Source: Prorocentrum cordatum
Taxonomy: Eukaryota
Assembly: GCA_963575745.1 (NCBI GenBank)
Contig: CAUYUJ010000059.1
Location: 558,001-622,000, forward strand
Direction: 5' to 3'
Length of the DNA: 64,000 nt
Made by a program: the position numbers and the translations under genes. The first letter of the stretch is position 1, and every line of letters begins with the position of its first letter. A model generated the notes under the pieces. That model was given only the letters and a program-made list of their open reading frames with translations, was not told the origin of the DNA and made no database searches. Shown here one piece after another: positions 15,610 through 44,185 of the stretch.

Positions 15610-16352
15610 GCGCACCCCCTGTGGCGTCGAGAAAGTGACACGCCTGCCACGCGTTGCGAGCCCGAAACGGATAGCGACCGCACCCCCAGCGCACCCCCTG
15701 TGGCGTCGAGGAAATGTCACGCCTGCCATTGCGAGGCCGAAACGGATAGCGACCGCACCCCCAGCGCACCCCCTGTGGCGTCGAGAAGACACGTTTGCCA
15801 CGCTTTGCAAGGCCGAAACGGATAGCGACCGCACCCCAAGCGCACCCCCTGTGGCGTCGAGGAAATGTCACGCTTGCCACGCTTTGCGAGCCCGAAACGC
15901 ATAGTGACCGCACCCCCTGCGCACCCCTTGTGGCGTCGAGGACGTGTCGCGCCTGCCACGCTTTGCGAGCCCGAAACAGCGACCGCATCCCTTGCGCACC
16001 CCCTTTGTAGCATCGAGAAGAGGCACGCTGTGAGATATGTGTCAGGCTGTATGTGGACGTGTGTCTCATGGGTGTGCCCATTATGTAGCGCATACGTCGT
16101 GGGTGTATGATGCAGTGAACACGCCAGGCGTGCACTAGCTTTGTATGGTGTGTGTGTGTGCGAGTGTGCGCATGCGTGCGGCTGTATGTAGACGCGTGTC
16201 TCATGTACGTGCCGTGCCGGTGTTGCGCGTGAGTGAGAAGAGGAAAAGGGAGGAGGGAAGGAGAAGGAGACGCGGGTGCAACGCTGCAGGGAAGAAAACC
16301 AGAACCCCACGAAACATGTGGGGAACAAGAACCCCACTAAACATTTGGGGAA
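15610..16352 (-). mobile_element. Satellite-carrying HINE-like element, copy 2 (~78-bp array) with duplicated terminal hairpin
   Basis: Five array units (15661-15990), the same tail as copy 1, ending AACCCCACGAAACATGTGGGGAA (to 16325) and AACCCCACTAAACATTTGGGGAA (to 16352). Confidence 0.8.
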
Positions 16353-17002
16353 CAACAGGGGGAAAAGGGGGAGCTGGAAGGCTGAAGGTGTGTGTAGGAG
16401 GTGGGCAGCAAAGGAAGGAGGAGGAGGAGGGAAAAGTCTAGAAGGATGAGGAGGGGGGAGAAGGAGGAGGAGGAGGGAAATGAAGGATGGGGCGGAGTGC
16501 ATGAGCGACTGCTAACAAAATCTGAGAATGTATTATGTTGCGTCCACCCTGTAATTCTCTGAGCTCCATATGGTAGTCGACGAAGCTATAGAGAGTGAAG
16601 AGGCAAACTGAAGAGGACAACATGATCATAAGATGGTTTCCACCACCCGTTTGACTAAATATTTTGCAGGTCCCTCAGGTAGGAGGAAGAAGAGGAGGAG
16701 GAGGAGAGGGGATGAATTGGAGAAGGAGGGAGGTAACGCGTGCCGGGTCCGCGCGCTTCCCAATGGCAGGTAGACAAGGCGTCCGGTCCGTGGAAGAGCT
16801 ACGAGGACGGGGAGTATTGCTTCCATTACATCTCGGAAATCGGCAACGGCACGACGCCGCCAGCCCCAGACCATTTCGAGCGTTTCGTTTTTTATACATA
16901 TATATAGTATATACATATACGTACACATACATGCATGCACATATCTATTTAGATATATGCATAAACATACACATACATATATATATATATAGAGATATAT
17001 GA

Positions 17003-17284
17003 TACCGGAGAAAACCCAATCAGGGCTATACGGCTAGGGGACTATAGGGATATTGAGCTATAGGGCTATAGAGCCATAGTGCTGTAGGGCTATTGGGCTA
17101 CAGGGCTATAGGGCCATAGGGCACCCCCGGGCACCCCCGGGCACGCCCGGGCACCCGGGCACCCGGGCACCCGGGCACCCCTGGGCACCCGGGCACCCGG
17201 GCGTGCGGTGAAAATCGGCGGCAAACCTAACCTAACCATATGAATCCGCTAGGACCCCTACAGAGGCAAGCTCTGATTGGGGAA
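17003..17284 (-). mobile_element. Short HINE-like element with (GGGCTATA)n and (GGGCACCC)n arrays, copy 1
   Basis: Subterminal inverted repeats CCCAATCAGGGCT (17015-17027) and AGCTCTGATTGGG (17269-17281), 12/13. Terminal hairpin CCCC..CAGAG-GCAAG-CTCTG..GGGG followed by AA. Second copy ends at 37693. Confidence 0.8.
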
Positions 17285-18290
17285 TATATACCTGGGCACG
17301 AGGCGGGAGTGGCGGGAGGGGGGCCCTGATTCTCCATGGGGGCACCGGGCCGCCAGGGACGCCCCTAGACGGCCCATGACAGCCCCAAATCGTATGAAAA
17401 CAGCCGCGAGAGGCCTCCAAAAGGGCGACAGTCGCTGAACTATTGTTCTAACACGCCCATGATGGCCTCCGGATGGCCCACAAGCCTTCCAACACGGCCC
17501 AAGCGGTCGTCAAGAGCACTCGCAAAAGGGCCCCAAGAAGCTAAAACCATTGATTTTCATTCGACCTTTGCACATTTTAGCGATTATGCCTGTTCCGCTC
17601 CACGACGGTCCAGGATACCCAAACATCGTCCAAACAGCTCCCACGAGGGCTCCAAGACGGCCCAGGGCCGCCACCAGACGGCCCAAGACAGCCCCAACAC
17701 ATTTGAAAACGGCCGCGAGAGCGTCAAAGAGAGCTCGAAACGCGAACATATCGCTCGAACACGCCCAAGATGGCCTCCAGATGGCCCAAAAGGCTTCCCA
17801 CACGGCCCAAGGGGTCTCCAAGAGCACTCCTCCAAGGGCCCCAAGAAGCCAAAATCGTTAATTATCTTTAGTTGTTTTATGGATTTCAGCAATTCTGCCT
17901 GTTCAGCGACCCGACGCTCCAAGACGGTCCCGGACACCCAAATATAGCCCCTACAGGCCCCCACGAGGGCGCCAAGACAAGACGGCCCAGGGACGCCCCC
18001 AGACGGCCCAAGACAGCCCCAAAACGTATGAAAATGGCCGCGAGAGGCCTCAAAGAGGGCTACAGTCGCGGAACTGTCGTTCTAACATCCCGAAGATGGC
18101 CTCGGGATGGCCCGAAAGGCTTCCAACACGGTCCAAGGGGTCCCCAAGAGCATTCCCAACCCCCACGAAGACCCAAGAGGTTCGACGCACGACTCTGTCA
18201 CGCGCCTGTGCTTGATAGCGCTGGCCAAGATCTTCCAGCGCCTCCCCCGGCTTGGGTTAGAACCTGAGCGCGCGCGAAGTGCGCGCGATG
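17285..18290 (+). mobile_element. 'GGCCCAAGA'-rich dispersed repeat ending in a GC hairpin
   Basis: Internal ~300-bp duplications (ATGGCCTC..GATGGCCC at ~17462, 17770, 18096). Terminus AGAACCTGAGCGCGCGCGAAGTGCGCGCG is shared in reverse orientation with 52993-53022. Confidence 0.7.
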
Positions 18291-18575
18291 TTTCCAGCAC
18301 ATAGGTATACAACACATACATACATACATAAATACATACACACACATACATACGTACGCACATACGTACAGACGTACATACATATACACATATACCTATA
18401 TATGCATATATATATATGTATGCATGTTATCAAAATGTACGACGGTATCAAGTTGCCGGCATGCTTGCGGCAAGTTCCGCCACCATGCTAGCCCAACATG
18501 TTGGGTGGCGATTGTTCAAGAGTGTACTGGAGGCCGTCACATGTGACACCTCGTGTCTCCAGGCTTGGGAAAGTC

Positions 18576-19140
18576 GAGATGACGATGACGATGAGTATGA
18601 TAGTGTTGATGATGCAGATGGTGGTGGTGACGATGATGCGGGTGGTGATGGTGATGGTGATGATGGTGATGATGCTGCTGTTGATGGTGGTGATGATAAT
18701 TATGATGGTGGTGGACTGATGGTGATGGTGATGATGCTAATGGCGATGATAATGGTGATGGTGATAATGATTATGAAGATGGTGGTGGCGGTGGTGGTGA
18801 TGATGATTTTGAGTATGATGATGATGATGACGGTGATGATGACGATCAGCATGAAGATGATGGTGATGATGAAGATGAAGATGATGATGTTGATGCTGAT
18901 ATTGGTGATGGTGATGATGACGATGACGACGACGACGACGATGATGATGATGATGATGATGAGTGCGGTGACGGTGGTGGTGATGATGATGTTGATGTGG
19001 ATGATGATTACGATGATGATGACCATGATGATTATGGTGATGATGATGGTGATGGTGATGGTGATGGTGATAATGATTATGGTGTTGGTGGTGGTAATGA
19101 TGGTTGTGATGATGATGGTGATGGTGGTGATGATGATAAC
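18576..19140. repeat. (GAT/GGT)n microsatellite
   Basis: Continuous GAT/GGT/GAC trinucleotide tract. Confidence 0.97.
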
Positions 19141-20169
19141 GAGGTTCAAAGGCTGAAATTTGCATAGGCAAGATGCCGCGACGCGGCTGGCCCGAATTAC
19201 GGGCCGATCTCCTCCTCGGGGAGAGACCAAAGTTCAGCACCCTCGGCCAAAGCGACGACGTCACAATATTGAACATCGATCAAAAAGGAAGATCCGCCCC
19301 ACCACCCGCGCAGAGGGGGGCAGGGAGGAGTGGGGAAGGTTTCTTAGAAGGAGCCTCCCCTCCCCTCCCCCTCTGCCCCCTTTTGCGCGCCACCGCCCGC
19401 TCCAAGCCAGACCATGGCCAGGCCATGCCTGGTGCTCCCAAGCTTCCAGGCGCCGCGAGAGCGAAAAAGTATTCTGCACAACTTCGACCTGGAGGCCTGT
19501 GCTCGGGTCCCGGGGCCATCACATCAAGCAAAGACCTGTGGCGAGACGCCGGTCCCGATGGTGGTGTCGAGGGCTCCCGGGCCCCACATGGTAAGACATC
19601 ACCGCGTCGGGGGGCTGGGTGGGAGTTGGCTTCCGTGGCCACGCAGCCTTGGAAGGCCCGCGATGCACGCGGCTGGGGCCGGTGGCGGCGTGCAGCCGCC
19701 GGTTTTCGAGCATCCTCGACCTCGAGGCGGACCTCGTGTACCTCGCCATGGCCCCAGGGGGGTAGGAGTAAGAGGAAGGGGGCGGGGGAAGTGAGGGAGG
19801 ATGAGCAGCAGCAGCTGGAGGGAAGGACAAGGCAGGACGAGGAGGACGAGGAGAAGAGGGGCTTGACGCAACAGCCTCGCCGCTCATGTTTGCCTAACGC
19901 CAAAGTGGAGGAGAAGGGGAGACGCGGAGGGAGAGGAGTGGGAGAAGGACTGCAGGGGAGGGAGGATTGGACGAGGAGGAAAGGTGATTAATGAGCAGGA
20001 GAGAAGGGGGCGAGGGGGGAGGAGGAGCAGGGGAATGGAGTAGAAGAAGAAGAAGATGATGATGACGAAAACGCCGACGAGCACAAGGAGGACGAGGAGA
20101 AGAAGACGAGGATAATGATGATAAGGAGGAGGAGGAGGACGACGACGACGACGACGGCAATGAGTTTAT

Positions 20170-21045
20170 GTCACATCGACATGCGGGATACTGCAGCATG
20201 CCGAAGAGGGAGGCTTGCGTCTTGTCCAGGAGAAGCAATGTGTCTGCCAATCGGAAAATCCTATCGCAGGAGGCTGTTCTCAAAGTCTCGCACGCACGCT
20301 TGTGCAAGCATAGTGCTCAAGCAAAGCGGTGTACGCCCCAACTCAGGCTTATTAGTCACCAGATGCTGTCGAACAAAATTGACGAGTCATCGTCATAGTC
20401 TTTGTATCTGGAGGGCATGCCGTAGTAGCTATTGTATTGTCATCACGTCGTAATGATAATCGTGTCCATTGAGATGTTGGAGTGCAGGTTCCAACCGATC
20501 TAGCTGGATACGGACTGTAGGCGTGCGTGCATCGTCCCTGATAGGGGACGAAGGAAGGAGCTTCGTGGCGAAGGCGCCGGCGTCGAAGATGTTGTCGTGT
20601 TTCTCCGAGCCCACCGCGATAGCTTCGACGACTGTCTCAGAAAGCCTACACGTGGTGGCCACGTCCGCCTCGCATTCCAGGAGTAGCATGGCCAGTGCCA
20701 GCCTGGAGGGGCAGTGCCTCCGCATCCTCTTCGCTACATCCTTCACGTCGTGCTTCACGTCGGGGACATCTGAGCGACACTAAAAAAAAGGTGGTTGTCT
20801 GTGCCGACATTGGCGCGTAAGCTGCCCGCGCAAGGTCGCGCCTAAGCGCCCTCGTCTCCATTGTGGCTTGACGCGCTGGTGGCCCGCGTAACTCATCGAG
20901 TGAGGTCGCTATGTCATCTCGCGTAAGCCCCGTCAGTGTTCGTCGCTCACCTGAGGTCTGGATTCCCCGAGTGACCCTCGCGACTGCCTCGAGGTCCGCT
21001 CCTGCTGTCGCCTCGGGGCTCTTGCCGGTGCTGCTCTGCGCCATC
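20170..21045 (-). pseudogene. Possible decayed or frameshifted coding region, product unknown
   Basis: Protein-like readings MAQSSTGKSPEATAGADLEAVARVTRG...RRDLARAAYAP, then in a shifted frame DVKHDVKDVAKRMRRHCPSRLALAMLLLECEAD...NIFDAGAFATKLL, followed by stops. Confidence 0.3.
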
Positions 21046-21052
21046 GCAGAGG

Positions 21053-21063
21053 GCGACGAGGAC

Positions 21064-21159
<96 letters not shown>

Positions 21160-21161
21160 AT

Positions 21162-21216
<55 letters not shown>

Positions 21217-21410
21217 GCGACGACGACGATGGCGACGACGGCGGCGGCGATGACGACGACGACGACGACGACGATGCTGCCCCAGTCCTGGCCCGTCCTG
21301 GGCCCAGGAGCGGGGTCTATGATCCCGGGCTCCGGGCCCACGGGCCCGTACCCCCCCCAAGATGGGATGGGTCCCAGGGCTCCTCGCCCCCCACGGACGC
21401 GACGGGGGGG

Positions 21411-21508
<98 letters not shown>

Positions 21509-21543
21509 CGACGACGATGACGACGACGGCGACGACGACGGCG

Positions 21544-21641
<98 letters not shown>

Positions 21642-21886
21642 CGCCGCGCGCCGCCCGCCGCCGACCTCTGGAGCCCTCCGACGACGACGACGGTGGCGGC
21701 GGCGACGACGACGACGGCCTCCGAAGCTCTTCTGGAGCACCACAGTACCACGCCACGCACGCCACACCCACAGCACCACACCACACCCACAGGGGGGGGG
21801 GGCCATCGCGCGGGGAAGGGGGGCCGATGGCTTCAGCATGAGGGGGGGGGGGGCCCCCGTCCCGCCCCAGATGGGATGGAGGGGGA

Positions 21887-21918
<32 letters not shown>

Positions 21919-21950
21919 CACCACGACCACGACGACGACGACGTCGGCGG

Positions 21951-21993
<43 letters not shown>

Positions 21994-22010
21994 CACGACG
22001 ACGACGACGA

Positions 22011-22046
<36 letters not shown>

Positions 22047-22089
22047 AGACGACGACGACGACGACGGCGGCGACGACGGCGACGGCGAA

Positions 22090-22136
<47 letters not shown>

Positions 22137-22160
22137 CGGCGACGACGACGACGACGACGG

Positions 22161-22194
<34 letters not shown>

Positions 22195-22410
22195 AACTTC
22201 GACGACGACGACGACGACGACGACGACCTCGGGAGCCCTCCGACGACGACGACGGCGGCGGCGGTGACGACGACCTCCGGAGCTCTCCTGGAGCACCATA
22301 GTACCACGCCACACACGCCACACCCACAGCACCACACCACGCCCACAGGGGGGGGGCGGGGGACCATCGCGCGGGGGGGGGGGGCCGATGGCATCAGCAT
22401 GAAGGGGGGG
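21053..22410. repeat. (GAC)n microsatellite interleaved with a duplicated ~135-bp module
   Basis: GAC runs separated by two copies of CTGGAGCACCA.AGTACCACGCCAC.CACGCCACACCCACAGCACC...GCCGATGGC.TCAGCATGA (~21720-21850 and ~22275-22410). Confidence 0.93.
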
Positions 22411-23032
22411 CCCAGACCCCGGACCGTACGTGCCTGCCTGGCCCAGGCAGGAGCGCGTATACGCCCTTCCTGGGCCCAGGATGGGCCAGGCCTGGGGCAG
22501 CGGATGTGCATAGATGTCGTCGCCCTGTCACGTCGAGCTCGGACTGCATCGTGTGGGCGAGGGTGGAGCAGCCGCACACGCGGTGCGGAGCGATGCCAGA
22601 GGCGGCAGGCCAAGGACAGCGCCGGAATGACGAGTACGATGTTGGTTTCTGTGCCCATTCGCCTGTGCGCGCGGGCGCCACGCACCCGCAGGCGGGGCGC
22701 CGCTGCTCGCCATGGAAGCAGCGGGTCCCGAGGGCCACGAGTCTTGAGTCGGGCCTGTCACTCTACAGGAGGAATGCTCAAAAATAGTCAAAAAGTAGTC
22801 TGGGACTTTTTTTTGTATTTTTTGACCAGTTGGGAATATTTGTTGGGTTTTTGTTTTTTCGTCGAAAATCCCCCTGTAGGGGGATACGCCCGACTTAACC
22901 CTCGGGGCCCTCACGCGGACGCGAGGGCGGTCCGAAAACGACGCAGGACCAAGAGCTCGTCCTGGGAGAAGGCACCTGGGGCCAGGACCCGTCCACCTGC
23001 TCCCGCCACAAAGGGGGGGGGGGCGTTCCGCT

Positions 23033-23198
23033 CGTCCTCCTCCTCCTCCTCTCCTTTCTCCTCGTCCTCCTCCTCGTCGTCCTCTTCTTCCTCCTCCTCA
23101 TCATCAGCATCATCATCCGCATCCGCATCTACCTCCGCCTCCTCTTCTTCCTCCACCTCCTGCACTCCTCCTCCTCCTCCTCCTCCTCGTCATCATCC

Positions 23199-23260
<62 letters not shown>

Positions 23261-23690
23261 GTCATCGTCATCATCATCATCAGCAGCATCATCATCATCA
23301 TCCTACACCTCCTCCTGCTCCTCCTCCTCCTCCTGCTCCTCATTCTCCTCCTCCTCCTCCTCCGCCTCCTCTTCTTCCTCCACCTCCTGCACTCCTCCTC
23401 CTCCTCCTCATCATCCTCTCCTCCTCCTCCTCCTCCTCCTCCTCCTCCTCCTCCTCCTCATGCTTCTCCTCCTCCTCCTCCTCCTCCTCCTGCGCTCCCG
23501 CACTCGTGCCTAACGTGGTCGCCTGCTCGCTCCTCCTCGTCCTTCTTCAGGCCTCTAGGGCCCACGCGGAGCAACAGTCCTGCGGCAAGAGGGGGCGCGC
23601 GAGGAGGAGGAGGAGGAGGAGGAGGAGGAGGAGGAGGAGGAGAAAGAGGAGGAGGAGGAGGAGGAGGAGGAGGAGGAGGAGGAGGAGCAG
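23033..23690. repeat. (CCT)n/(CAT)n tract and adjacent (GGA)n tract
   Basis: Direct inspection. Confidence 0.95.
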
Positions 23691-24222: not shown

Positions 24223-24388
24223 AACGCCGTGAACGTAAGCTTTTGGCGCTCCGCGCGGATTCCTTGGATCCGCGCTGGGCCCCCCCTGGCGGCGCCTCCG
24301 GCGCCGCCCCTGGCGCTCTCCGCGCGAGGGGGGTCCAGCGGAGATCCAAGAAGTCCGCACGGAGCGCCCCAAAAGCCTTATGCTTGGC
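24223..24388. mobile_element. Hairpin MITE, copy 2
   Basis: TAAGCTTTTGGCGCTCCGCGCGGATTCCTTGGATCCGCGCTGG pairs with CCAGCGGAGATCCAAGAAGTCCGCACGGAGCGCCCCAAAAGCCTTA. Homologous to 7769-7955. Confidence 0.75.
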
Positions 24389-27360: not shown

Positions 27361-28346
27361 ATTAGCCTGGCGAAGGACCCAACCATATGCAGCTGTGGGT
27401 ATCGCATTCGGGGGAGCCCCGTATGGGGCCATGAAGCGCTGTACTGGGTGGGGGGGACGCATGCGAACTGCGCCTCTGGGTCCTTCGGTGGAGCTCCCTA
27501 TGGGGCCACGAAGCGCTGTACTGGATGGGGGAACCGCATGCGGGCTGTGCCACTGGGACCTTCGGTGGAGCTCCGTATGGGGCTACGAAACGCTGTACTG
27601 GGTGGGGGGGGACGCATGCGACACGCGCCACTGGGACCTTCGGGGGAACTACCTATGGGGCCACGAAACGTTGCCTTGGGTGGGGGGGGGGGCATGCGAA
27701 CTGCACCACTGGGGCCTTCGATGGAGCTCCCTATGCGGCCACGACGCGCAGCCCTGGGTGAGGGAACCACATGCGGGCTGTGCCACTGGGACCTTCGGTG
27801 GAGCTCCCTATGGGGCCACGAAACGCTGCCCTGGGTGGGGGAACCGCATGCGGGCACCCCCACTGGGGCCTTCGGTGGAGCTCCCTATGGGGCTACGAAA
27901 CGCTGCCCTGGGTGGGGGAACCGCATGCGGGCACCCCCACTGGGGCCTTCGGTGGAGCTCCCTATGGGGCCACGAAACGCTGCCCTGGGTGGGGGAACCG
28001 CATGCGGGCTGTGCCACTGGGACCTTCGGTGGAGCTCCCTATGGGGCTACGAAACGCTGCCTGGGTGGGGGAACCGCATGACTGGGACCTTCGGTGGAGC
28101 TCCCTATGGGGCTACGAAACGCTGCCCTGGGTGGGGGAACCGCATGCGGGCTGTGCCACTGGGACCTTCGGTGGAGCTCCTCTATGGGGCTACGAAACGT
28201 GTGAGGGGTGTGCCGAGAGCAGAGGCAAGGAGGGGGAGGAGGGAGGAGGGCAAGGAGGGCGAGGAGGGGGAGGAGGAGGAGAGGAGGTGGGACGCGGGGC
28301 GCTGTCTCTTCAAAACGAGGACCCAACACCACAGGATGGTTGGGAA
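27361..28346 (-). mobile_element. HINE-like element carrying a 77-bp tandem array (~10-11 units)
   Basis: TTCGGTGGAGCTCC recurs every 77 bp (27484-28167). Subterminal inverted repeat CCCAACCAT (27378-27386) and ATGGTTGGG (28336-28344). Terminal hairpin CCCAAC..GTTGGG plus AA, and a (GGA)-rich block next to it. Confidence 0.85.
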
Positions 28347-28947: not shown

Positions 28948-29136
28948 ACTCTGTAAGAACGGTTTTTTGAAGGCAGATCTGCCTTCAAAAAGAACGGTTT
29001 TTTGAAGGCAGATCTGCCTTCAAAAAACCGTTCTTACAGAGTAGACCGATTTTTTGAAGGCAGATCTGCCTTCAAAAAACCGTTCTTACAGATTTTTTGA
29101 AGGCAGATCTGCCTTCAAAAAACCGTTCTTACAGAG
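28948..29136. repeat. Cluster of four perfect palindromes centred on AGATCT
   Basis: Core TTTTTGAAGGCAGATCTGCCTTCAAAAA x4. 28990-29035 is a perfect 46-bp palindrome. The region ends CTCTGTAAGAACGG / CCGTTCTTACAGAG are mutually inverted. Confidence 0.97.
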
Positions 29137-32207: not shown

Positions 32208-33289
32208 GGGTGAGGCCGCCCGCGGACACTGCGGGCGGCCTGGGCGGCCCCAACTGCCCGTCGCGTGACCTTCACGCGTTTCGCGGCCCACGTTTCAACG
32301 GGGTGTTTTCCAGGCTGCCCCCCCGCAACGCCATGAGTTGGAGGCCACGTCACAGCAACCCCAGCACTCCACGAGCCAGCCAGTGCAGCTCAGTTCACGG
32401 GTTGGTCGTGACGTCTTCGCCGCAGGCCCCCAACAGAATACGGAGTTTGATTGTGTGAGGCATTCCACAAAAAGGCTTTGCCTTCGAGGATCGAAGGAGT
32501 TGTCATCTTTCCTCGGCGGAAGGGCAGCGGAAGGTCGGCGGAAGCAAAACGAGGCCGCCTCCGCCGGCGGAAGCTCGGCAGAAGGCGGCGGAAGCAAAAG
32601 ATGTGTCTCCAAGAGATGATTTTTTTTTTTAGGTTCAGGGTTTCCGAAATTGCCCATGTAGGAGAATCACTGCTAAACACCCTCATGGCGGACACAACTT
32701 CGAATGCTATGGGTGACGAGAAAGAGGAGGAGGACGGGGCCAGACCAGACCAGAGCGGACGATTCCGACCAGACCAGGTTGGACCGGCATGTTTTCTCTC
32801 TCGCCCTCAGCTTTTCCTTCGCCTTCAAAGCTGAATCGCGGCCGAGACCCTCAAACATCACAAGGGCAGTTTTTGTCTGAAAGCCCCCAGCCCCACAAAA
32901 CACGTGCTCCTTTCGCCCGTAAACCTCTGGCACACAACACGCAGTCTCTGTTCGTCCGAGGCCTTGGGAACCACAGAACATATGGGTAATTTTCACCCGT
33001 AAGTTTCGGTCCCCGCAACATACGTGATTGGTGTTCCGCGAGACTCGGGACTCACAAAACACATGTTGTTTTCGTCCGTACATTCGGAGGTTGCAAAAAG
33101 ACATGCGTGATTGAGCCCTCACGGCGGGAGTCACGGCGGGCCCCCAGAGGGAAATTCGCATGTCAATTTTGCAATTAGTGGATATTCGGGGCATGGCTTC
33201 GACGACGGTCGGCATCACTCGTTGGAATTTTTGTCGGGGCCATCTTGACATCTAGGGGGTGACAGACGGTCTCAGGTGCCAACAGGGCT

Positions 33290-35566: not shown

Positions 35567-36909
35567 AAGTGTACTCTGTATTGTTGTTTGACAGGGATGG
35601 TGGGGGGAGGCCGCATCGGGTTCGCTGCGCATGCTCCGAATTTTGAGGCCGAGTGTGTTTTGCATTGTTTGTTACCAGGGATGGTGGGGGGGTACCCGCA
35701 TTGTTCCTGGTTGGCTCCCAGTCGCCTGGGGGAGGGGGTGTATATTAATAGGGAGCAGTGATAAACCCTGCCCCTAAGCGGAAGAAAGGGCTTGGAAGAG
35801 GAACCGCCCTAGACCACCTACGCCCAGAAGGCTGGTGTGAAGAATTTTCGATCACCAGGGAGATATATGACAAGATGGGAAGGGGGGGAAGAAGACGAAA
35901 CTCAAGAAAAAAAATACAAATATCGGGAATAGTGCGATGTGTGCTGATCTATTCGTGTGTGCCCCTGGGCGCCGTCAGGATTGAGCTGCGAATCCCTCGT
36001 GTTTGACGCGTCTCGGCGGCCTGGGGGGGCGCAGGATGTGCACGAGGGGTGTGCCGAGCCAGGGCCTCCGCGGTCCCGGGCGCGCGGATCATCCGTAAGT
36101 TGACGGTCGGACAGAGGTAAAGGATCGAGGTCGGCTCGTGGAGGGTGCCCCTAGTGTCCTTTGTGCCTGCTGTTCTTGCGCATCCAGGGGGAGGGGGTAC
36201 GCTCGAGTGATCTCCATGTTTGGGGGCGTTTTGCCCAGCGGAGGGTCACACGGTCTTGAAGGATGCGCTTCTGTCCTGGGTCCGACCGTAAGTCTACGCG
36301 TCCAGGGAGCACCCCCGGGAGACCTGCCTCATCGAAATATCCTCAAAGCATCTTGCAAATATCACAGGCCGGCGGAATTCGCGAGGCCTCTCCCTGCATG
36401 CGCTTACACATGCACGTCGCTCTGCTCCTTCATCCTCGCTTTCGTCATCTACCTTCGGCGGTTGTCATGGCGAGGTGCCGCAGGGGGCCCGCCGAGTGGA
36501 GCCCACAGAGCTGGAGTCACGGCGGGGCCCCTGGGGGAAGTTCCCACGCAGGTGTTGCAACCAGTGGGTGTTAGGGATTTGCCTCGACGAGGGCCGGTAC
36601 CAATCGTTGCAGTATTTTTTTGGGGGGGGGGCATATTTGCTCCCCTTGGAGGATTAGGCGGTTTTGGAGCCCAGCTAAGGGCCTGTGGGGTCCATGATGC
36701 ACGACGTGCGTGAGGGGTGTGCCGAATTGAGGCTCCAAGGAGCCGTCTCGGGGGCCAGCTGAGCGCCCAACGTTCACGAATTGCGTGAGGGGTGTACCGA
36801 ACTGAGGTTCCCATCAAATCGGAAGGGCAATTCACTCGTATTCCCACGTCCCCCAGGAGCCTCGAGGCCCACATCATTTATTCTTCCGTCAATTAGGCTT
36901 GCCTGAAGG

Positions 36910-37275
36910 GTTCCTACTCGGTTAAAGGTTGGTGCCTCGGGAGCTTACTTTGCCAGTTCCCCAGGGTTCCTCGGTTTCCCCGGGTTCCCCGTGTTCCCCA
37001 GGTTCTTCGTGTTTCTTGGGTTGTTACCCGGTTTCCCCGTTCCCTGGGTTCCCCAGGTTCCCCGGGTGCCTCGGGTTGGTTCCCCAGGTTCCCCGGGTTC
37101 CCCGGGTTTTCGGGTTCCCCAGGTTCCCCAGGTTCCCCGCCTTGGGTGCTTCGTGTTCTTGTTGTGCCCGTTCCAAGCAATGCCAAACAATGCCAAGCAT
37201 TGCGCCCGTGCAGTAAGAAGTTTTCCTCAAAATTGGGGTTGCGCCGGGTTCATGAAAAAGAATGATACCCGAGAA
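36910..37275. repeat. (GGTTCCCC.)n 9-bp minisatellite element
   Basis: GGTTCCCC(A/G) units from ~36955 to 37140. Confidence 0.75.
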
Positions 37276-37299
37276 AAAAAAAACAATGATAATATTTGT

Positions 37300-37693
37300 A
37301 GGGATAGAGGGCTATGAGGCTATAGGGCTAGAGATATTTAGGGCTATAAGGCTATGGGGCTAAAGGGCAATAGGGCTATATAGAGACATAGGGCTATAGA
37401 GACATAGGGCTATTGGGCTATAGGACTATTGGGCTACAGGGCTATAATGCTATAAGGCTATGGAGCGATGGGGCTATGGGGCTATAGGGATATAGGGCTA
37501 CAGCGCTATTAGGGCTATAGGGGTATAGTGCTATAGGGCTACCGAGCACCCTGGCACCCAGGCACCTGGGCACCCAGGCACCCAGGCACCCGGGCACCCA
37601 GGCACTTAGGCGTGCCGCCGAAATCGGCGCCACACCTCACCTAACCATATGAATCGGGTAGGACCTCTACAGAGGCAAGCTCTCATTGGGGAA
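37300..37693 (-). mobile_element. Short HINE-like element, copy 2 of the 17003-17284 family
   Basis: Same (GGGCTATA)n then (GGCACCCA)n arrays and near-identical end ACCTAACCATATGAATC.G.TAGGACC.CTACAGAGGCAAGCTCT.ATTGGGGAA. Confidence 0.85.
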
Positions 37694-39279
37694 GAAATTG
37701 TCCCATGAGCTTGAGGGAGCAGATCAGTCGTATGTTCGCGTGTCCCAGTGGAGGTAGGAAATGCATGAGGACTGTCTAGGATTGAGCCCTTCATGGCCCT
37801 CGGAGCGCAGATCATTTTTATTTTCAGGTGTCCCAGTAGAGTGTGGGGCACGAAACGCGTGAGGGGTGTGCCGAATCGAAGCCTTCGTTGGGCAAAATGT
37901 GTGAGGGGTGTCCCGTATCGAGGCTGTCGTAGTTTTGGGAGCGCAGATCAGTTGTATTTGCATCACGTGTCTTTGGAGCTGTCACGCACATGGGCCTAGC
38001 CCTGGGAGCGCATGTCACTCATATTACGCGCCCCAGGCAGATTATAAAACATGCCTCATCGAAACATCTTCGGGCCAGAGGAATCAGCGAAATGCTTTAC
38101 GCATGCTTCTCACCATCCTTAATGTCATCAGCATCACATCATCTACCCTCGACGGCCAACACGGCGAGAACCCGCAAAAAGCCAGCCGATTCCAATCGTT
38201 TCGCTCACTCCGCTGGCCCATATTGCATCAACGTTGGCACTTGCTTTGCGTGCTCACGGGGGCTGAGAAGGCAGTGGGTGGTTGTCGTTTCCTTGAGTTG
38301 TCGCGTCAAACTCGCTTGGGAGAGGAACAACGGCAAAGTAGTCTAGGCAACACTCCACGGAGTACACCACCACCGAAGTTCCGTCAGTGCATCCCGCCGC
38401 CATGCTTGGGTCGTGGGTCAGAGGCGTGTTGAATGCCTTTCGGGCTCTCTTTGAACGCCCATCGAAGGCCTCTTGGAGGCTCATTGGGAGTCTCCTGGGG
38501 CTTCTTGGCCTCCTGGGTGCTTCTTGAAGGGTTCTTGGAGAATCTTGGGGCCCGTTGGGGGCTTCTGGGCCACTCTCGGGGAGACGTTGGCGGTCTCGGA
38601 GGCCCACCTGGGGGGGTTCTTGGGCCATCTTGGTGCCCCCTTGGGCCGTCTTGGGGATCGCCTGCGGGCCTCTGGGCCCGTCTTGGAGCGACCTCGGGGG
38701 CCTCTCGGGCTGCCTTGGATTGTCGGAAGCCCGGAGGAGCAAGAACACTAAACCGCTCAAGAATGTGAGGAAGATCAAGGATTTTTGCATCTTGGCCGTC
38801 AGATAGCACCTGGTGGCTCCCCTTGCACATGTTACGCCTGATGCATCTCGATGACCTTTAGCGAGATTGAGTAGGAGAAGCAAGAACGAGTGTGCATGAG
38901 TATGAGTGTGGGCGGAGGCTCGAGGGGCAGGAAGTGGAGGATCGAGGGTGAGGAGGATCGAGGAGGAGCAACAGCAGCAGGAACAGGAGCAGGAGCATCA
39001 CAAAAAGACAAGCCCCGTTCCCGCCTGCATACCTTGGCCAGCCATCTTCCTCGATCATCTTGATCGCCTGGTCGGGGGATGGTTCTCTATATTAATCCTC
39101 CTCCTTCTCCTCATCTTCCTCGAGCCTCATCCCTCTCCTTCTCCTCCTCCTCCTCTCTGCTCCTCCTCCTCTCTGCTCCTCCTCCTCCTCCTCCTCCTCC
39201 TCCTCGTCCTCCTCCTCCTCCTCCTCCTCCTCCTCCTCCTCGATCCCTGTCCTCATCTTAACCGGGGGAGGCTACATGT

Positions 39280-40330
39280 GAGTGATTAGAGTATGAACGG
39301 TCTGCGCGTATACTTATGATTATGAGTGAGCTGATTATCAGTCGGTCTGAGCGTGAGTGGTCTGAGTACTGAATGAGCGAGTCTGGGTATGAACGCGTCT
39401 AAATGTGGGAGACTAAGTACGAGTGAGTCTAGGTGTGGACGATATGAGCGTGAGTGGTCTCTGTGTGTGATCCGGAAAATGGTTGGTCTGAGTGTGAGTG
39501 GACCTAGGTGTGTGCGATTGAGTCTGAGTGTGAGCAGGTCTGACAGAACATGTTTTGTGGACGTTTGGAAGGGAGCGGGGGGATCGAACCCGGGGGGGGG
39601 CCTTGAATTGCAAGGGGGCGGGGGGTTCGAACCAAGGGGGGGGCCCGCCCTCCTCAGGGTGGGGGGGGCGGTTCGAACCCGGGGGGCGGGGGGGTCCTGA
39701 ATTGCAAGGGGGGGTGGGACTCGAACCAGGTAGGTGGGGGAGCCCTCCCTCCCCAGTGGCAACCGACGACGGCGAGCGCGAGCGCCGGCGCCACCGCAGT
39801 CGGGCAGCGACGACGGAGACGACGACGACGACGACGACGACGATGATCGATCGAGCCTTAGTAGGATGCGGTTAAGGCTGGATCGAGCCCTGGTGAGGTT
39901 CAATCAGAGCTGGAGCGAGCCCTAGCAGGGTTCAATTAGATTATGATATCGCTGTGGTCGGATTCTTAGTAGAGCTGCATCGGGCTTTGGTAGCATTCAC
40001 TTGGAGGCGGACCCAGCCATAGTCAGATTCCGTTAGAGCTGGACCGAGCCCGATTTGGATGCTATTGAAGTTGGGTCCTGCTATAGTTGGATTCTATCAG
40101 TGTTGAATATAGTAGTATCCCAGTAGACTTGGATCCGGCTAAAGTAAGATTCTACGAGCGTTGGACCGAGCCCGATTAGGATGCCATCACAGCTGCATCC
40201 AGCTACAGTCGGATTTCATTAGAGCCTGATCGAGCACTGGTAGGATTCTGTTTGGGGCAAGGGGGGGGCAGTTCGAATCCCCCCCCCCCGAGCGAATTCG
40301 GTTCGAGAAGCCAGTGTCCAGAGGGGGAGG
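39280..40330. repeat. Composite repeat block: (GAGT)-rich segment, GGTTCGAACC/G-run repeats, ~32-bp degenerate array
   Basis: GAGTGAGTCT-type motifs 39280-39540. TCGAACC with G-runs 39575-39730 and 40260-40310. TAGAGCTGGA.CGAGCCC units 39850-40250. Confidence 0.6.
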
Positions 40331-40386
40331 CGAGCGCTTCAAATGTTTAGGGTGGGGGGCTCCTTGTTCCGACGTGTCCAAGGATA

Positions 40387-43300
40387 TTTCCCCACCTCCA
40401 ACGTGGGGTTCCAGTTTTCTCTGCGCACCCCCCGCGCAGGTACCTCACCCAGCGCCTCTCTCTCCTCCCATCACCATCCCAGTACCATCACCATCATCAT
40501 CAAATCATCACCACCGTCACCATCACTTACTCATTCATTCGACACCACACATCTTTATCATAATCGCCATCATCACCACCATCATCATCTCACACGCACG
40601 CTCTCACTCGCGCTCCCACAAACACGCATTCATCATAACCAGCCAACATTGTCAACATCATCATCACCCGTCATCGCTTTCACACCGTAATCATCACTTT
40701 CATCATCCCACCGTGATCATCGGCCAGTAACATTACAGTCACACTCACTCACACACTCACACAGTCATATCGAGGACCTCTCGAGCGGGAGTCTCGCCTG
40801 TGAGTGAATCACGAAGAAGCCTCGAGCGAGAGCCCCCTCCCCACCGGTCCCGCGCATCATGTTCTTTCCCCAAACAGCTTGCTGAACGGGGTGCTGTTGT
40901 GATAGAAGCTAACTCCGGCCGAGGGAAATCAAAGCATAGACGTCCTCAAAAAAATTTGGTGGTCCAGACCAGTTCGCCTGAGACATCTTCGCAACTCTCG
41001 TTTCTGAGTTGTCTGGGATTGGGCGTTTCGCGTGAGACATCCTCCAAACTCTGAGTTCCCAGATGTCGCGCGCGAGATGGTCTGGCCCATTTCGCTTGAG
41101 ACATCCTCCAAACTCTGAGCTCTCAGATGCCGCGCGCGACATGGTCCAGCCCGTTTCGCCTGAGACATCTTCCAAACTCTGAGCTCCCAGATGCCGTGCG
41201 AGAGGTGGTCCGGCCCGTATCACCTGAGACATCCTCGCAATTCTGAGCTCTGAGATGCCGTGCGCAAGGTGGTCCGGCGCGTTTCGCCTGAGACACTCTC
41301 GCAACTCTGAGTTTTGAGATGCCGCGCAAGAGGTGGTCCAGCCCATTTCGCTTGAGACATTCTCGAAACCCTGGGCTCCGAGATGCCGCGCAAGAGGTGG
41401 TCCGGCCCGTTTCGCTTAAGACATCCTCCAAACTCTGAGCCCTGATCTGCCGTGCGCGAGGTGGTCCGGCCCGTTAAGCTTGAGACATCCTCCAAACTCT
41501 GAGCCCTGAGCTGTCGCCCAAGAGGTGGTCCGACCCGTTTCACTTGAGACATCCTCACACGTTTGCATTCCGAGATGCCGCGCGAGAGGTGGTCCGGCCC
41601 GTTTCGTCTGAGACGTCCTCCAAACTCTGAGCTCTGAGATGCCGCGCGCGAGGTGGTCTGATCCATCTCGCCTGAGACATCCTCGCAACTCTGAGCTCTG
41701 AGATGCCGTGCGCAAGGTGGTCCAGCCTGTTTCGCACAAGACATTCTCGCAACTCTGAGCTCCCAGATGCCGCGCAAGAGGTGGTCCAGCCTGGGGGCCC
41801 AGAAGACCACATGTTACGTATCCTCCCTGGGAGCCCCAGGAGGCACCAGAGAGCCCCAGGAGGCCGCAGGACGCCCAGGACAGGCCCCAGGGGTCCCCAG
41901 GAGATTCCCAGGAGGCTCCCAGGAGGCCCCAGGAGGCCCCCTATCAGAACGTGTCAGGTTAATACACATCCAGTGTCGATTCGCTGATTTTTCCTGCTCT
42001 TGTGGCCCCCCCCCCATTTTGAGGGGCCCAAACGGCCACATGTTAGATATCCCCCCCAGGGAGCCCCAAGAGGCTTCAGGAAGCCCCAGGTGGAGTCCAG
42101 GAGGCCACAGGAGGCCCAGGAGGAAGCCCCAGGAGGCCCCCGCAACTCGGAGCTCTGAGACGCCGCGCTCGAGGTGGTCCGGCCCGTTTCGCCTGAGACT
42201 TCCTCGCAGCACGTTTCGCCCGAGACATCGTCGCAACTCTGGGGTCCGAGATGCCGCGCGCGAGGTGGTCCAGCCCGTTACGCTGGAGACATCCTCGCAA
42301 CTCTGGGCTCCGAGATGCCGTTCGGGATGAAGAGGAGGTGGAGGAGGAGGAGGAGGAGGAGGAGGAGGAGGATGAGAAGGAGAAGGAGATGGAAGGGAGA
42401 AGGAGGAGGAGGAGGATGTGGATGAGGGAGCAGGCAAGGAGGGGGAGGAGGAGGAGGAGGAGGAGGAGGAGGAGGAGGAGGAGGAGGGAGAAGGAAGGGA
42501 GTTGCAGGAGAGGACCTAACGGGAAGCGAGTGTGACGTGGACTTGTCAGAACGTGTGCGAGAGGTTGTCCGGCCCGTTTCGTTTGAGACATCCTTCCAAT
42601 ATTGAGCTCCAAGATGTCGCTCGCGAGGTGGTCCGGCCCGTTTCGCTTGAGTCATCCGCACAATGCGAAGCTCGAAGATGTTGCGCGCGAGATGGCCTGG
42701 CCCGTTCTGCCTGAGACGTTTCGTAGCACAGGGGCTCCAATCACAACCTCTCTCATTCCTTCTCCCGCCTCCCTCTTCCCGCGTCCCGCCTGGCTCCTCC
42801 TCCCTCCTCCCGCCTCCCGCTGCTACGCCTCTGCCTCCGCCTCCCCGTCCCCGCCGTCGTCGTTTCTGCCGCCTCAGCATCCGTCATGCGCGCCCTGCCT
42901 TCCGCCCTCCCGAGGCATCCGACGTCGCGATTTTCTTTTGAGACGTGCGCCGCATACCTCTCGATATCATCCCCGGGTGAACCATCACGACATGCCCCCC
43001 CGCTTCCGCGCCTTCCCCCGTTTCCTCTTACAGTTGCTTCCGAGTTCACAGCATGGCGGTGGAGCCTCTCACAGTGCCGACCCGACAGCTTATGCGTCGA
43101 CCAGGTGCGAGTACGACACCCTCTAGCGTTAGCTTCCTGATACATAGGCATGCGTCACACAAGTTTTCGTGTAAACATCTCATGTGCAGACATCATGTTA
43201 CCATGTTCGAACATGCCATGCCAGCCCGCAGTGGACGGGCATCATGTTACCATGGCATCATGCCATGCCATGCCATGGCATCATGTTACCATGTTCGACC

Positions 43301-44185
43301 TTGGAAACCGCAGTGGGTTTAAAAACCCGGTTTGGGGATACCGCATTCGGGCTATCATTTTTTCATCCCGCTGGGTCATCCTCAAAAGCTTGCACCTGTC
43401 GTCACATTTGGACTCCTCAGGCTTGAATATGGAGGAAGTCTCACGCGGGAGCCTCATCGGTAAGCGAATCGCAAGGCAGTCTCGAGCGGGAACCCCCTCT
43501 TTATGGGGCCCGCACGTCCCCCTTTTTAATCCCAGCGGCTCATCCTCAAACTTCTAATAGTCATCATGTTTGGGCTCCTGGATATGGAGGAAGTCTCAAG
43601 CGGGAGATTCGTCTGCGAGCGAATCGCGAGGAAATCTCGAGTGGGATCCCCTCCCTGCGGAGTCCCCACCTGCATGTTCGAACCCGATGGAGTCTTCTGA
43701 GACATGTAATTATCATTTTCTACAAGCCCCCCCAGGTCTCCCGAGTATGGAGGAAGTCTCGAGCGGGGGCGTCGTCTTCGAGTGAATCGCGAGGAAGCCT
43801 TGAGCGGGGATCCCCCCGTATGGTTCCCCACCTCCACATGTTTCATCCCTACGGCTCATCCTCAAACTTGTAATTGTTGTCATGCTTTGGTTTTCCAGGC
43901 GCGAGTGCGGAGGAAACCTCAAGCGGAAGCTTCGTGTGTGAGTGAAACGCGAAAAAGTCTCGAGTGGGAGTCCCTCCCTATGGAGTCATCATTTCCATAA
44001 TCGAATCCGAGCGGGTCATCCGAATATTTTAAGTGTCGTTTTTTTCTGGGTTACCCAGGCCTGAATTTGGAGGAAATCTTGAGCGGGGGCCTCGCTTGCG
44101 AGTGGATCACGAGAAATCTCGAGCGAAAGCCCACTTCCATATTCGACAAGAGGGCTGTGAGCTCCAGGGCTGAGGCGGAGCTTTC
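40387..44185 (+). mobile_element. Outer HINE-like element with ~158-bp array, interrupted by the 40865-43357 insertion
   Basis: Starts TTTCCCCACCTCCAACGTGGGG (hairpin, same end type as 16325). The array unit begins at 40770-40864 and resumes at 43358 (GGAGGAA.TCT at ~43430, 43586, 43749, 43909, 44069). Hairpin AGCTCC..GGAGCT near 44160-44182. Confidence 0.7.
40865..43357 (+). mobile_element. Inner HINE-like element with a 64-bp tandem array, inserted in a T run
   Basis: 5' TTTCCCCAAACAGCTTGCTGAACGGGG hairpin. 3' GTTTGGGGA (43330-43338, inverse of TCCCCAAAC) then stem-loop GATACCG..CGGGCTATC. GTGGTCC recurs every 64 bp from 41205 to 41781. Confidence 0.8.

What the first reader, a model, noticed from the sequence alone, without database searches (positions are those of the whole stretch)
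16300..43357. One terminal grammar (TTCCC + hairpin ... subTIR + stem-loop) shared by several elements carrying unrelated satellites: a Helentron/HINE-like satellite-dispersal system
Seen: six termini begin TTCCC and fold into a hairpin. On + they are 40388 (TTCCCCACCTCCAACGTGGGG) and 40866 (TTCCCCAAACAGCTTGCTGAACGGGG); on - they are 16325, 17284, 28346 and 37693. In three cases the first 9-13 nt reappear inverted near the far end (17015/17269, 27378/28336, 40867/43330). The interiors are unrelated arrays of 8, 64, 77, ~80 and ~158 bp, usually with a microsatellite block near the hairpin end. Known: TT insertion without TSD, subterminal inverted repeats, a 5' IR hairpin, a microsatellite, central tandem repeats and a 3' stem-loop define DINE-1/HINE non-autonomous Helentrons. 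Inference: a rolling-circle superfamily is generating and spreading much of the satellite DNA in this genome. I am not aware of it being described in dinoflagellates but cannot check the literature.
Basis: partly seen in the sequence, partly recalled or inferred. Interest (0 to 1): 0.8.

Follow-up and report, generated by a model that had tools for sequence, protein, structure and literature searches.

The report
Helitron2-like mobile elements carrying satellite arrays

Summary
Partly confirmed. All six quoted termini exist, but "TTCCC + hairpin" alone is not above chance (13 sites against 11.2 expected).

A narrower grammar is real: 5' TT + 9-nt inverted repeat inside a conserved hairpin module; interior of microsatellite and tandem array; the inverted copy 15-20 nt from a 3' end reading GG(C)TATCAT.

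- Family A has it in two window copies (16999-17284, 37262-37693, minus strand). A metagenome contig holds the 5' part of a third.
- A new diverged copy has it (X, 36884-37253).
- The 2.5-kb element 40865-43363 has it.
- 27361-28346 fits more loosely.

The A copies end sharply, with unrelated flanks. The 2.5-kb element interrupts one unit of the ~158-bp satellite. Sister units give empty sites with no target duplication, in a T-run. This matches published Helitron2/HINE features, except that a 3' stem-loop is clear in only one element.

The two best hairpins (16325, 40388) are not shown to be termini: homology runs past them and no 3' end was found.

No Rep-helicase lies among 241 ORFs scanned. 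The host organism and genome-wide copy numbers could not be tested, so "spreading much of the satellite DNA" is unproven.

New member of a known kind.

The parts
16999..17284 (-). Family A copy c17k, complete. On the minus strand: 5' end TTCCCCAATCAG at 17284; 5' inverted repeat at 17273-17281 (+ coordinates); (CCCGGGCA)n at 17126-17202; (AGGGCTAT)n at 17022-17122; 3' inverted repeat at 17015-17023; 16-nt tail ending GGTATCAT at 16999.
37262..37693 (-). Family A copy c37k. Same ends as c17k, with 30 units of the 8-mer. The outer hairpin stem is degraded (GGGG>GAGG). The 3' inverted repeat is degenerate, but one change is matched in both arms (C/G).
36884..37253 (+). 5' TTCCGTCAATTAGG module; (GGGTTCCCC)n at 36956-37139; 3' ATTGGGGTTGCGCCGGGTTCAT. 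It lies tail-to-tail with c37k, 8 bp apart (37254-37261).
   Evidence: 5' module: 0 of 500 shuffles reach the score; 3' end: 1 of 500
27361..28346 (-). Probable element E28346. 5' TT(T)CCCAACCAT hairpin; (AGGAGGGGG)n at 28228-28292; 77-bp array at 27407-28199; 3' inverted repeat at 27378-27386; 17-nt tail ending GGCTAAT. Single copy; boundaries are inferred from the grammar only.
   Evidence: no significant sequence similarity to A or E40866 ends
40865..43363 (+). Element E40866 (about 2.5 kb). 5' TTTCCCCAAACAGCTTGC module; 64-bp arrays at 41024-41791 and 42557-42717; 10-mer arrays; (GAG)n; 3' inverted repeat at 43330-43338; imperfect 7-bp hairpin; GGCTATCAT at 43350-43358; T-run to 43363.
40767..44140 (+). 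The ~158-bp satellite that E40866 interrupts. Unit 1 is 40767-40864 plus 43364-43425. Intact units at 43426-44140 serve as paralogous empty sites (CATGTT[T/C]|CATCCC).
16230..16352 (-). B head: two tandem 27-bp hairpin units (16329-16352 and 16302-16325), then a pyrimidine-rich stretch. It leads into the CA-rich stretch and the 79-bp array at 15609-16029. Not shown to be a transposon terminus.
14720..15010 (-). Adjacent duplicate of the B head, lacking the first hairpin and the 5' arm of the second. It precedes the 79/160-bp array at 13602-14705. This is a local duplication 1.3 kb away, not an independent insertion.
40338..40440 (+). B head at 40 kb. Strong hairpin at 40388-40411. Homology to the 16-kb head begins upstream, at about 40340.

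Best explanation
The region holds at least five non-autonomous DNA transposons of the Helitron2/Helentron type (HLE2; 'HINE-like'). They are two copies of family A, a diverged relative X, the 2.5-kb element 40865-43363, and probably 27361-28346.

Each consists of:
- a 5' end TT followed at once by a 9-nt repeat that sits in a small hairpin module;
- a left arm that usually ends in a microsatellite;
- a tandem array that differs from element to element;
- the inverted copy of the 9-mer;
- a 15-20-nt tail ending in GG(C)TATCAT or a variant of it.

Inferred mechanism. A Rep/helicase (HUH) transposase, encoded elsewhere in the genome, recognises the two end modules. It nicks at the T-rich edges and peels off one strand. 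It re-inserts that strand between Ts of a T-rich site without duplicating the target. Only the ends need to be kept, so the interior is free to be replaced by arrays and to expand by slippage or unequal exchange. The elements thereby carry short arrays to new sites.

Shown: the anatomy, sharp ends with unrelated flanks, a precise insertion without duplication in a T-run, and shared end modules with unrelated cargo.

Inferred: the transposase, the single-strand route, and which end is 5'.
For: (1) Family A ends.
- 3 of 3 copies (c17k, c37k, metagenome contig L001) end sharply at TTCCCC (alignment A4).
- The left arms are 80-85% identical.
- The flanks show no similarity: 614-1000 of 1000 shuffles score as well.
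- The 3' end GGTATCAT is shared by the 2 copies that reach it.

(2) Array length differs among A copies: 12.6, 30.0 and at least 24.2 units of the 8-mer.

(3) X is homologous to A at both ends. 5' module: 0 of 500 shuffles. 3' end: 17/22 identical, 1 of 500. It carries only the 9-mer microsatellite.

(4) E40866 shares the 5' module with A (TTCCCCAA..AGCTTGC..TG.A.GGGGT).
- Local alignment: 1 of 500 shuffles.
- nhmmer E 1.7e-4, but with a model built from an alignment that included E40866 itself, so not an independent test; a model built from the three A copies alone did not find it.
- Alignment A5.
- It also shares the 3' motif. GG(N)TATCAT occurs at only 3 sites on both strands, all three being predicted 3' ends.

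(5) Empty site.
- Left homology to the 158-bp units stops at 40864. Right homology resumes at 43361-43364.
- Sister units read CATGTT[T/C]|CATCCC.
- No duplication, with T-runs on both edges.

(6) Joint grammar. TTCCC + 9-nt inverted copy + GG(N)TA(N0-2)AT tail: 3 sites, against 0.04 in 100 simulations, largest 1.

(7) One change in the inverted repeat is matched in both arms between c17k and c37k.

(8) Published definitions fit.
- Helitron2: 5' repeat 0-2 bp from the end and part of a 5' hairpin; 3' repeat about 20-30 bp from the end; 5' T; insertion after TTTT; no duplication; compensatory changes (PMC3627910 passages).
- HINE/Cg_HINE: subTIR + IR + microsatellite, then tandem repeats, then 3' subTIR; T-rich targets; no TSD (PMC4067079 passages and section 6; PMC7492417 passages).
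Against: - No Rep-helicase, and no other transposase domain, in 241 ORFs of the window. No genome is held, so the defining link to an autonomous partner is untested.
- A 3' stem-loop after the 3' repeat is part of both published definitions. It is clear only in E40866. None of the four 3' ends folded is better than shuffles.
- The 3' tail (15-20 nt) is shorter than published ranges: about 20-30 bp for Helitron2 and 38-60 bp for mite HINEs.
- The 5' hairpins of A, E40866 and E28346 are thermodynamically unremarkable (z -1.8 to +0.25). No covarying pair was found in the 5' module.
- E28346 and E40866 are single copies here. E28346 shows no significant sequence similarity to the others (219 and 185 of 500 shuffles). 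Its 3' motif was fitted after the fact.
- The T^T target cannot be told apart from Ts that belong to the element.
- Only one empty site exists.
Confidence: 0.65

Rival explanations
1. They are mobile elements that insert without duplication, but they are moved by some other enzyme: another HUH transposase, a tyrosine/serine recombinase (Crypton- or IS607-like), or an undescribed one. The resemblance to Helitron2 ends would be convergent.
For: - No transposase of any kind was found.
- The 3' hairpin expected of Helitron2/HINE is mostly missing, and the 3' tail is short.
- Hairpins at ends are general to Rep transposons (PMC10288648 passages).
Against: - Together, a 5' T, a 5' repeat 2 nt from the end, a subterminal 3' copy, a T-run target without duplication, and a microsatellite-plus-array interior are what the papers read define as HLE2.
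- Replitrons have short direct, not inverted, terminal repeats, and often variable duplications.
Confidence: 0.15
2. There is no common mobile system. The 'termini' are chance TTCCC sites and satellite junctions in a repeat-rich, recombining region. Family A is just a small dispersed repeat.
For: - TTCCC + hairpin, and TTCCC + 9-nt inverted copy, are each at chance level.
- The two best hairpins (B heads) lie inside longer homologous blocks, and one is a local duplicate.
- E28346 has no second copy and no significant similarity to the others.
- Other TTCCC[CA]A sites tested (19337, 52686) resemble nothing.
Against: - The 2.5-kb insert starts and ends exactly at the predicted modules and splits a satellite unit cleanly.
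- A copies have sharp ends at unrelated sites, including one in another DNA source.
- The 3' motif occurs nowhere else in the window.
Confidence: 0.1
3. They are miniature inverted-repeat elements (MITEs) of a cut-and-paste DDE transposon, or SINE-like retroposons.
For: - Short size, no coding capacity and inverted repeats.
- A T-run at one edge of E40866 could be read as a tail.
Against: - The inverted copy is 15-20 nt inside the 3' end, and that tail is conserved among copies and belongs to the insertion.
- The empty site shows no duplication, and the other copies show no consistent one.
- No tRNA-like or Rfam match. No poly(A).
Confidence: 0.05

Closest known systems
Helitron2 non-autonomous elements, e.g. 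Helitron-1N1_CRe of Chlamydomonas reinhardtii (Bao & Jurka 2013, PMC3627910; passages read)
   Same: - 5' end starts with T.
[quoted passage not shown] Here it is 9 nt long and 2 nt from the end.
- The 3' copy is subterminal.
- Insertion next to a T-run without duplication.
- A change matched in both arms.
   Different: - The 3' copy is 15-20 nt, rather than about 20-30 nt, from the end.
- The 3' hairpin that follows it in Helitron2 is clear only in the 2.5-kb element.
- No RepHel partner is known here.
- The interiors are dominated by tandem arrays.
HINE / DINE-1 and oyster Cg_HINE, non-autonomous Helentrons (Thomas et al. 2014, PMC4067079, passages and section 6; Vojvoda Zeljko et al. 2020, PMC7492417, passages)
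   Same: - Left arm with subTIR, complementary IR and microsatellite.
- Central satellite-like array that can be unrelated between elements with related arms.
- Right arm with the inverted subTIR.
- T-rich/TT targets, Ts at the edges that vary in number, and no TSD.
- Boundaries confirmed by paralogous empty sites.
   Different: - Published subTIRs are 11-15 bp; here they are 9.
- In the mite, the 3' subTIR lies 38-60 bp from the end with a palindrome after it.
- Helentron partners carry an endonuclease domain, which cannot be checked here.
- The hosts described are animals.
Helitron2-like RepHel element of Symbiodinium microadriaticum (Heringer & Kuhn 2021, PMC8788227; one passage read)
   Same: If the window is from a dinoflagellate, this is the nearest reported autonomous candidate type. 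It is a RepHel without endonuclease, branching at the base of Helitron2/Helentron.
   Different: - No sequence comparison was possible.
- The paper's passage gives no termini.
- The window's organism is not established.

Membership tests
HLE2 (Helitron2/Helentron) non-autonomous elements | 5' end begins with T; short inverted repeat 0-4 nt from the 5' end | tested here: met
   TT + 9-nt repeat in A (3 copies), X (7 of 9 kept), E40866 and E28346
HLE2 (Helitron2/Helentron) non-autonomous elements | 5' hairpin that involves the 5' repeat (IR complementary to the subTIR) | tested here: inconclusive
   A two-tier hairpin can be drawn in A (c17k, L001) and in shortened form in E40866. Folding z is only -1.8, -1.5 and -0.4, it is lost in c37k, and there is no covariation.
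HLE2 (Helitron2/Helentron) non-autonomous elements | Inverted copy subterminal at the 3' end (about 20-30 bp Helitron2; 38-60 bp mite HINE) | tested here: met
   Tail lengths are 16, 20, 15, 20 and 17 nt (c17k, c37k, X, E40866, E28346). This is subterminal, but at or below the short end of the published range.
HLE2 (Helitron2/Helentron) non-autonomous elements | Palindrome/stem-loop after the 3' repeat | tested here: inconclusive
   E40866 has an imperfect 7-bp hairpin. A and E28346 have at most 3-4 bp, and X none by eye. Of the 3' ends, four (c17k, c37k, E40866, E28346) were folded, and none folds better than shuffles.
HLE2 (Helitron2/Helentron) non-autonomous elements | Insertion between Ts / in T-rich sequence, no target-site duplication | tested here: met
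   One paralogous empty site for E40866. At the other copies T stands at every junction and there is no consistent duplication. Only one empty site was available.
HLE2 (Helitron2/Helentron) non-autonomous elements | Autonomous partner encoding Rep/PIF1-type helicase with the same ends | not testable with these tools
   No genome is held. None found in 241 ORFs of the window.
HINE / DINE-1 type | Microsatellite in the left arm and central tandem repeats | tested here: met
   Met by A, X and E28346. E40866 has arrays but no microsatellite next to the hairpin.
Canonical Helitron (HLE1) | 5' TC, 3' CTRR, insertion between A and T, 3' hairpin only | tested here: not met
   3' ends read TATCAT, TTCAT or CTAAT. 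The flanking bases are T-run or T. A 5' repeat is present.
MITE of a DDE transposon | Terminal inverted repeats at both tips and a fixed-length target duplication | tested here: not met
   The 3' repeat is 15-20 nt inside the end. The empty site shows no duplication.
Replitron | Short direct repeats at the termini | tested here: not met
   The ends are TTCCCC... and ...TATCAT. The repeats are inverted. Definition from PMC10288648 passages.

The most novel reading that the evidence does not exclude
These elements are the non-autonomous arm of an undescribed Helitron2/Helentron lineage in a GC-rich marine protist, possibly a dinoflagellate. The lineage would have an unusually short, hairpin-poor 3' tail.

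It would both seed and make satellites. Arrays would arise on the elements: the array length differs 12.6 / 30 / at least 24 units among A copies. Duplicated terminal hairpins (the B heads) would mark rolling-circle re-initiation that turns element ends into new tandem repeats. A large share of the genome's satellite families would then trace back to such elements.
Probability: 0.2. Interest if true: 0.65.

Novelty: new member of a known kind. Interest (0 to 1): 0.45.

Why it matters
If the reading holds, a rolling-circle transposon family is one route by which short satellite arrays are copied to new places in this very repeat-rich genome. The same has been shown for Drosophila DINE-1 and oyster Cg_HINE.

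It would extend that link to a protist lineage. My searches of the held paper library turned up no description of satellite-carrying HINE-like elements in dinoflagellates. They found only one Helitron2-like RepHel.

Practically, the two end modules give a simple query for annotating such elements and for separating 'array carried by an element' from 'array hit by an element'.

It does not yet show that these elements explain much of the satellite DNA.

Tried and rejected
- Whole genome: none is held.
- Sequencing runs: none was listed for 36900-37800, and no RNA holder was listed.
- Earlier findings of the scan: three look-ups, nothing.
- tRNA and Rfam scans of the window: nothing.
- A 21-nt dinoflagellate spliced-leader motif recalled from memory: 0 matches with up to 3 mismatches. 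This is weak, and the organism stays unidentified.
- Protein atlas look-up of an exon-like ORF of L001: no usable hit.
- Metagenome scan with the A terminus: one contig, L001.
- Viral contigs, three scans: two chance hits to a 16-mer and nothing for two longer patterns.
- Prokaryote genome contigs, two scans: none, then five bacterial or MAG contigs with short (GGGCTATA)n runs. These showed no significant match to the A 5'-arm model (nhmmer E >= 0.77), and the three whose flanks I read have unrelated ones.
I scanned ORFs instead.
- Search for a 3' end of the B heads: no convincing inverted copy. The candidates at 47333 and 15004 were rejected on inspection.
- Other TTCCC[CA]A sites (19337, 52686, 22836, 56708, 32463/32964): no significant similarity to any end module (E 3.2). 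No matching pair was found, apart from a 12-nt inverted match 56708/50645 without any other feature.
- Similarity of the 10-mer CGCATTCGGG near 27400 and 43343: rejected, because at 27400 it is part of the 77-bp satellite and on the wrong strand for the grammar.
- Homology of the region upstream of 40388 to the 158-bp unit: not found by BLAST.

Full report
**Setting**

The window is 55-72% G+C, without N, and dense in micro- and minisatellites (156 TRF rows). No whole genome is held. No sequencing run was listed. No tRNA or Rfam family was found.

I scanned 241 stop-free ORFs against Pfam: 12 + 141 of at least 110 aa, and 88 of 70-109 aa. All but the first 12 (picked by hand among the longest) were pre-filtered for non-repetitive composition.
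- One reached a curated threshold: Galaxin_repeat at 32676-33251 (minus strand), 28.2 against 28 bits.
- Two were sub-threshold low-complexity hits.
- None matched Rep, helicase, DDE transposase or reverse transcriptase.

The organism was not identified. A recalled dinoflagellate spliced-leader motif has no match, which proves little.

**Observation check**

The arrays are present. As a class, though, "TTCCC + hairpin" is not special.
- TTCCC/GGGAA occurs 169 times.
- Sites with a stem of 5 bp or more starting at nt 3: 13, against 11.2 +/- 3.3 in 200 Markov-1 simulations. For 6 bp or more: 6 against 3.2 +/- 1.7.
- A 9-nt inverted copy within 3.2 kb is found for 20 TTCCC sites, against 14.7 +/- 3.9 simulated.
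- Only the hairpins at 40388 and 16325 fold significantly better than shuffles (z -3.3 and -3.0). The others range from -1.8 to +0.25. The four 3' ends folded are unremarkable.

**Family A**

Self-comparison of the window finds one dispersed pair inside the finding: 16999-17284 and 37262-37693, 79% identical over 265 columns.

On the minus strand both copies read as follows:
- TTCCCCAAT[C/G]AGAGCTTGCCTCTGTAG[G/A]GGTCCT...;
- a ~90-nt arm;
- (CCGGGTGC)n, then (ATAGCCCT)n;
- an inverted copy of the first 9-mer;
- a tail ending GGTATCAT.

A scan of metagenome contigs with the terminal 23-mer found one contig, L001. It holds the same array, arm and end, and then unrelated sequence.

In the three-way alignment the similarity stops exactly at TTCCCC.
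- Arms are 80-85% identical.
- Flanks are no more alike than shuffles.
- The 8-mer array has 12.6, 30.0 and at least 24.2 units.
- Between c17k and c37k, one base of the inverted repeat differs in both arms in a matching way (CAATCAG/CTGATTG against CAATGA/TCATTG).

**A fourth, diverged copy (X)**

A profile of the A arm gave a weak hit at 36889 (E 0.11). Inspection and local alignment then defined element X at 36884-37253 (plus strand).
- Its 5' module aligns to A with 0 of 500 shuffles reaching the score.
- Its 3' end, ATTGGGGTTGCGCCGGGTTCAT, matches the c17k 3' end at 17 of 22 positions (1 of 500).
- It carries only a (GGGTTCCCC)n block.
- It lies tail-to-tail with c37k, 8 bp away.

**The 2.5-kb element and its empty site**

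The sequence left of 40865 (from 40767) and right of 43363 are the two halves of one unit of the ~158-bp satellite. Intact units of that satellite follow at 43426-44140.
- Homology of the left flank to the units ends at 40864. Homology of the right flank begins at 43361-43364.
- Sister units read CATGTT[T/C]|CATCCC or TTTTT|AATCCC at that point.
- The insert therefore begins TTTCCCCAAAC and ends GGCTATCATTTTTT. Nothing is duplicated or lost, and it sits in a T-run.

Its ends resemble those of family A.
- Its first 19 nt align to the A terminus (1 of 500 shuffles).
- A profile of the A/X/E40866 5' modules finds exactly those four window sites (two A copies, X, E40866) below E 1e-3. The model was built from an alignment that contained these same sites, E40866 included. 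A profile from the three A copies alone did not find E40866.
- Its 3' end carries the same GG(C)TATCAT. That motif occurs at only three sites on both strands of the window, namely the 3' ends of three of the elements (c17k, c37k, E40866).
- Its inverted 9-mer (43330-43338) lies 20 nt from TATCAT. An imperfect 7-bp hairpin lies between them.

**27361-28346**

This element has the same layout: TT(T)CCCAACCAT hairpin, a (CCTCCTCCC)-type microsatellite, 10.4 units of a 77-bp repeat, the inverted 9-mer, and a 17-nt tail ending GGCTAAT, followed by TTAAAT.

It is single-copy. It shows no significant alignment to the other ends, and its tail motif was fitted afterwards. I rate it probable, not shown.

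With the tail motif relaxed to cover it, the joint grammar occurs 3 times, against 0.04 expected and a largest value of 1 in 100 simulations. The motif is partly post hoc. The independent parts are E40866's GGCTATCAT and its empty site.

**The two strong hairpins (B heads)**

TTCCCCAC-N7-GTGGGGTTC occurs at 16302-16325 and 16329-16352 (minus strand) and at 40388-40411 (plus strand). That is 3 matches against 0.38 expected, and 0 of 100 shuffles reach 3.
- The first two are a tandem pair.
- A third head at 15010-14720 is a neighbouring duplicate that lacks the first hairpin arm.
- No inverted copy with a tail was found downstream of any of them.

They start with the same TTCCCCA...TGGGGTTC theme and precede pyrimidine-rich stretches and arrays. 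They may be relatives, but they are not shown to be termini. The ~158-bp array behind 40388 is shown only to be a target.

**Cargo**

The satellites compared in pairs are unrelated, except 79~89 bp and a weak 64~158 bp match on the opposite strand.

A satellite in L001 shares a ~40-nt core with the 77-bp repeat. It has no TTCCCAAC head in the ~640 nt before it. The cargo family therefore also exists outside such an element, at least there.

**Comparison with known families**

Passages read define the families as follows.
- Helitron2 (PMC3627910): a 5' T; an 8-15-bp repeat 0-2 bp from the 5' end that forms a 5' hairpin; the inverted copy about 20-30 bp from the 3' end, ahead of a hairpin; insertion after TTTT without duplication; compensatory changes.
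- HINEs (PMC4067079; PMC7492417): subTIR + IR + microsatellite, central tandem repeats, 3' subTIR + palindrome, T-rich/TT targets, variable terminal Ts, no TSD.
- HLE2 elements insert between T and T (PMC11417382).

The elements here meet the 5', inverted-repeat, target and cargo criteria. The 3' palindrome is unclear and the tail is short. The partner protein is untestable.

Other classes do not fit: canonical Helitron ends (TC...CTRR, A^T), MITEs (terminal repeats plus duplication), Replitrons (direct terminal repeats, PMC10288648) and retroposons.

A Helitron2-like RepHel is already reported from Symbiodinium microadriaticum (PMC8788227, one passage).

My searches found no paper on satellite-carrying HINE-like elements in dinoflagellates. 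The terms were Helentron + dinoflagellate; Helitron + dinoflagellate + tandem repeat; and dinoflagellate + genome assembly + Helitron + GC content. The library is partial, and supplements were not consulted.

**Verdict**

It is best explained as non-autonomous Helitron2/Helentron-type elements with exchangeable satellite cargo (confidence about 0.65).

The wider claims remain open: the B termini, a universal 3' stem-loop, a dinoflagellate host, and a major role in the genome's satellites.

Noticed in passing
window 28955-29136: Three tandem copies of a near-perfect ~48-nt palindrome (GTAAGAACGGTTTTTTGAAGGCAGATCTGCCTTCAAAAAACCGTTCTTAC-like). It is set inside remnants of the 50-bp satellite that also flanks 27361-28346. 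It looks like a foldback or MITE-like unit.
   Followed up: no
window 1765-1981, 2014-3263, 3468-3967: Two arrays of the same 16-bp unit in opposite orientation (70-78% identical in self-BLAST) bracket a 142/280-bp array rich in GGGTC and CCCTAA-like motifs. Together they form a large inverted arrangement.
   Followed up: no
window 40388-40400 and 43824-43836: The first 13 nt of the hairpin at 40388 (TTCCCCACCTCCA) recur exactly inside unit 4 of the ~158-bp satellite, just before the point where the 2.5-kb element inserted in unit 1. The satellite unit may be related to the hairpin head. BLAST found no wider homology upstream of 40388.
   Followed up: partly
window 37612-37630 and L001:285-300: An internal 5-bp hairpin in the family A arm (CGCCG-AAAT-CGGCG in c37k, CACCG-AAAT-CGGTG in L001) keeps pairing through a change on both sides. 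In c17k (17206-17222) the arms are direct, not inverted, and the hairpin is lost.
   Followed up: partly
window 56697-56708 and 50634-50645 (minus strand): An exact 12-nt inverted match (CCCAACGCTGCC / GGCAGCGTTGGG) lies 6 kb apart and starts 2 nt after a TTCCC. The pair brackets the 343-bp and 11/21-bp arrays. No hairpin, tail motif or other feature of the grammar was seen.
   Followed up: partly
window 40268-40290 and 39569-39640: G-run / TTCGAA / C-run palindromes (GGGGGGGGCAGTTCGAATCCCCCCCCCC) resemble a tRNA T-arm. ARAGORN and Rfam found no tRNA.
   Followed up: partly
L001:620-871 (minus strand): An exon-like ORF with no stop lies next to the family A copy in the metagenome contig. The protein atlas gave no usable hit.
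   Followed up: partly
window 32676-33251 (minus strand): This is the only ORF of 241 to reach a Pfam curated threshold: Galaxin-like repeats, 28.2 against 28 bits.
   Followed up: no
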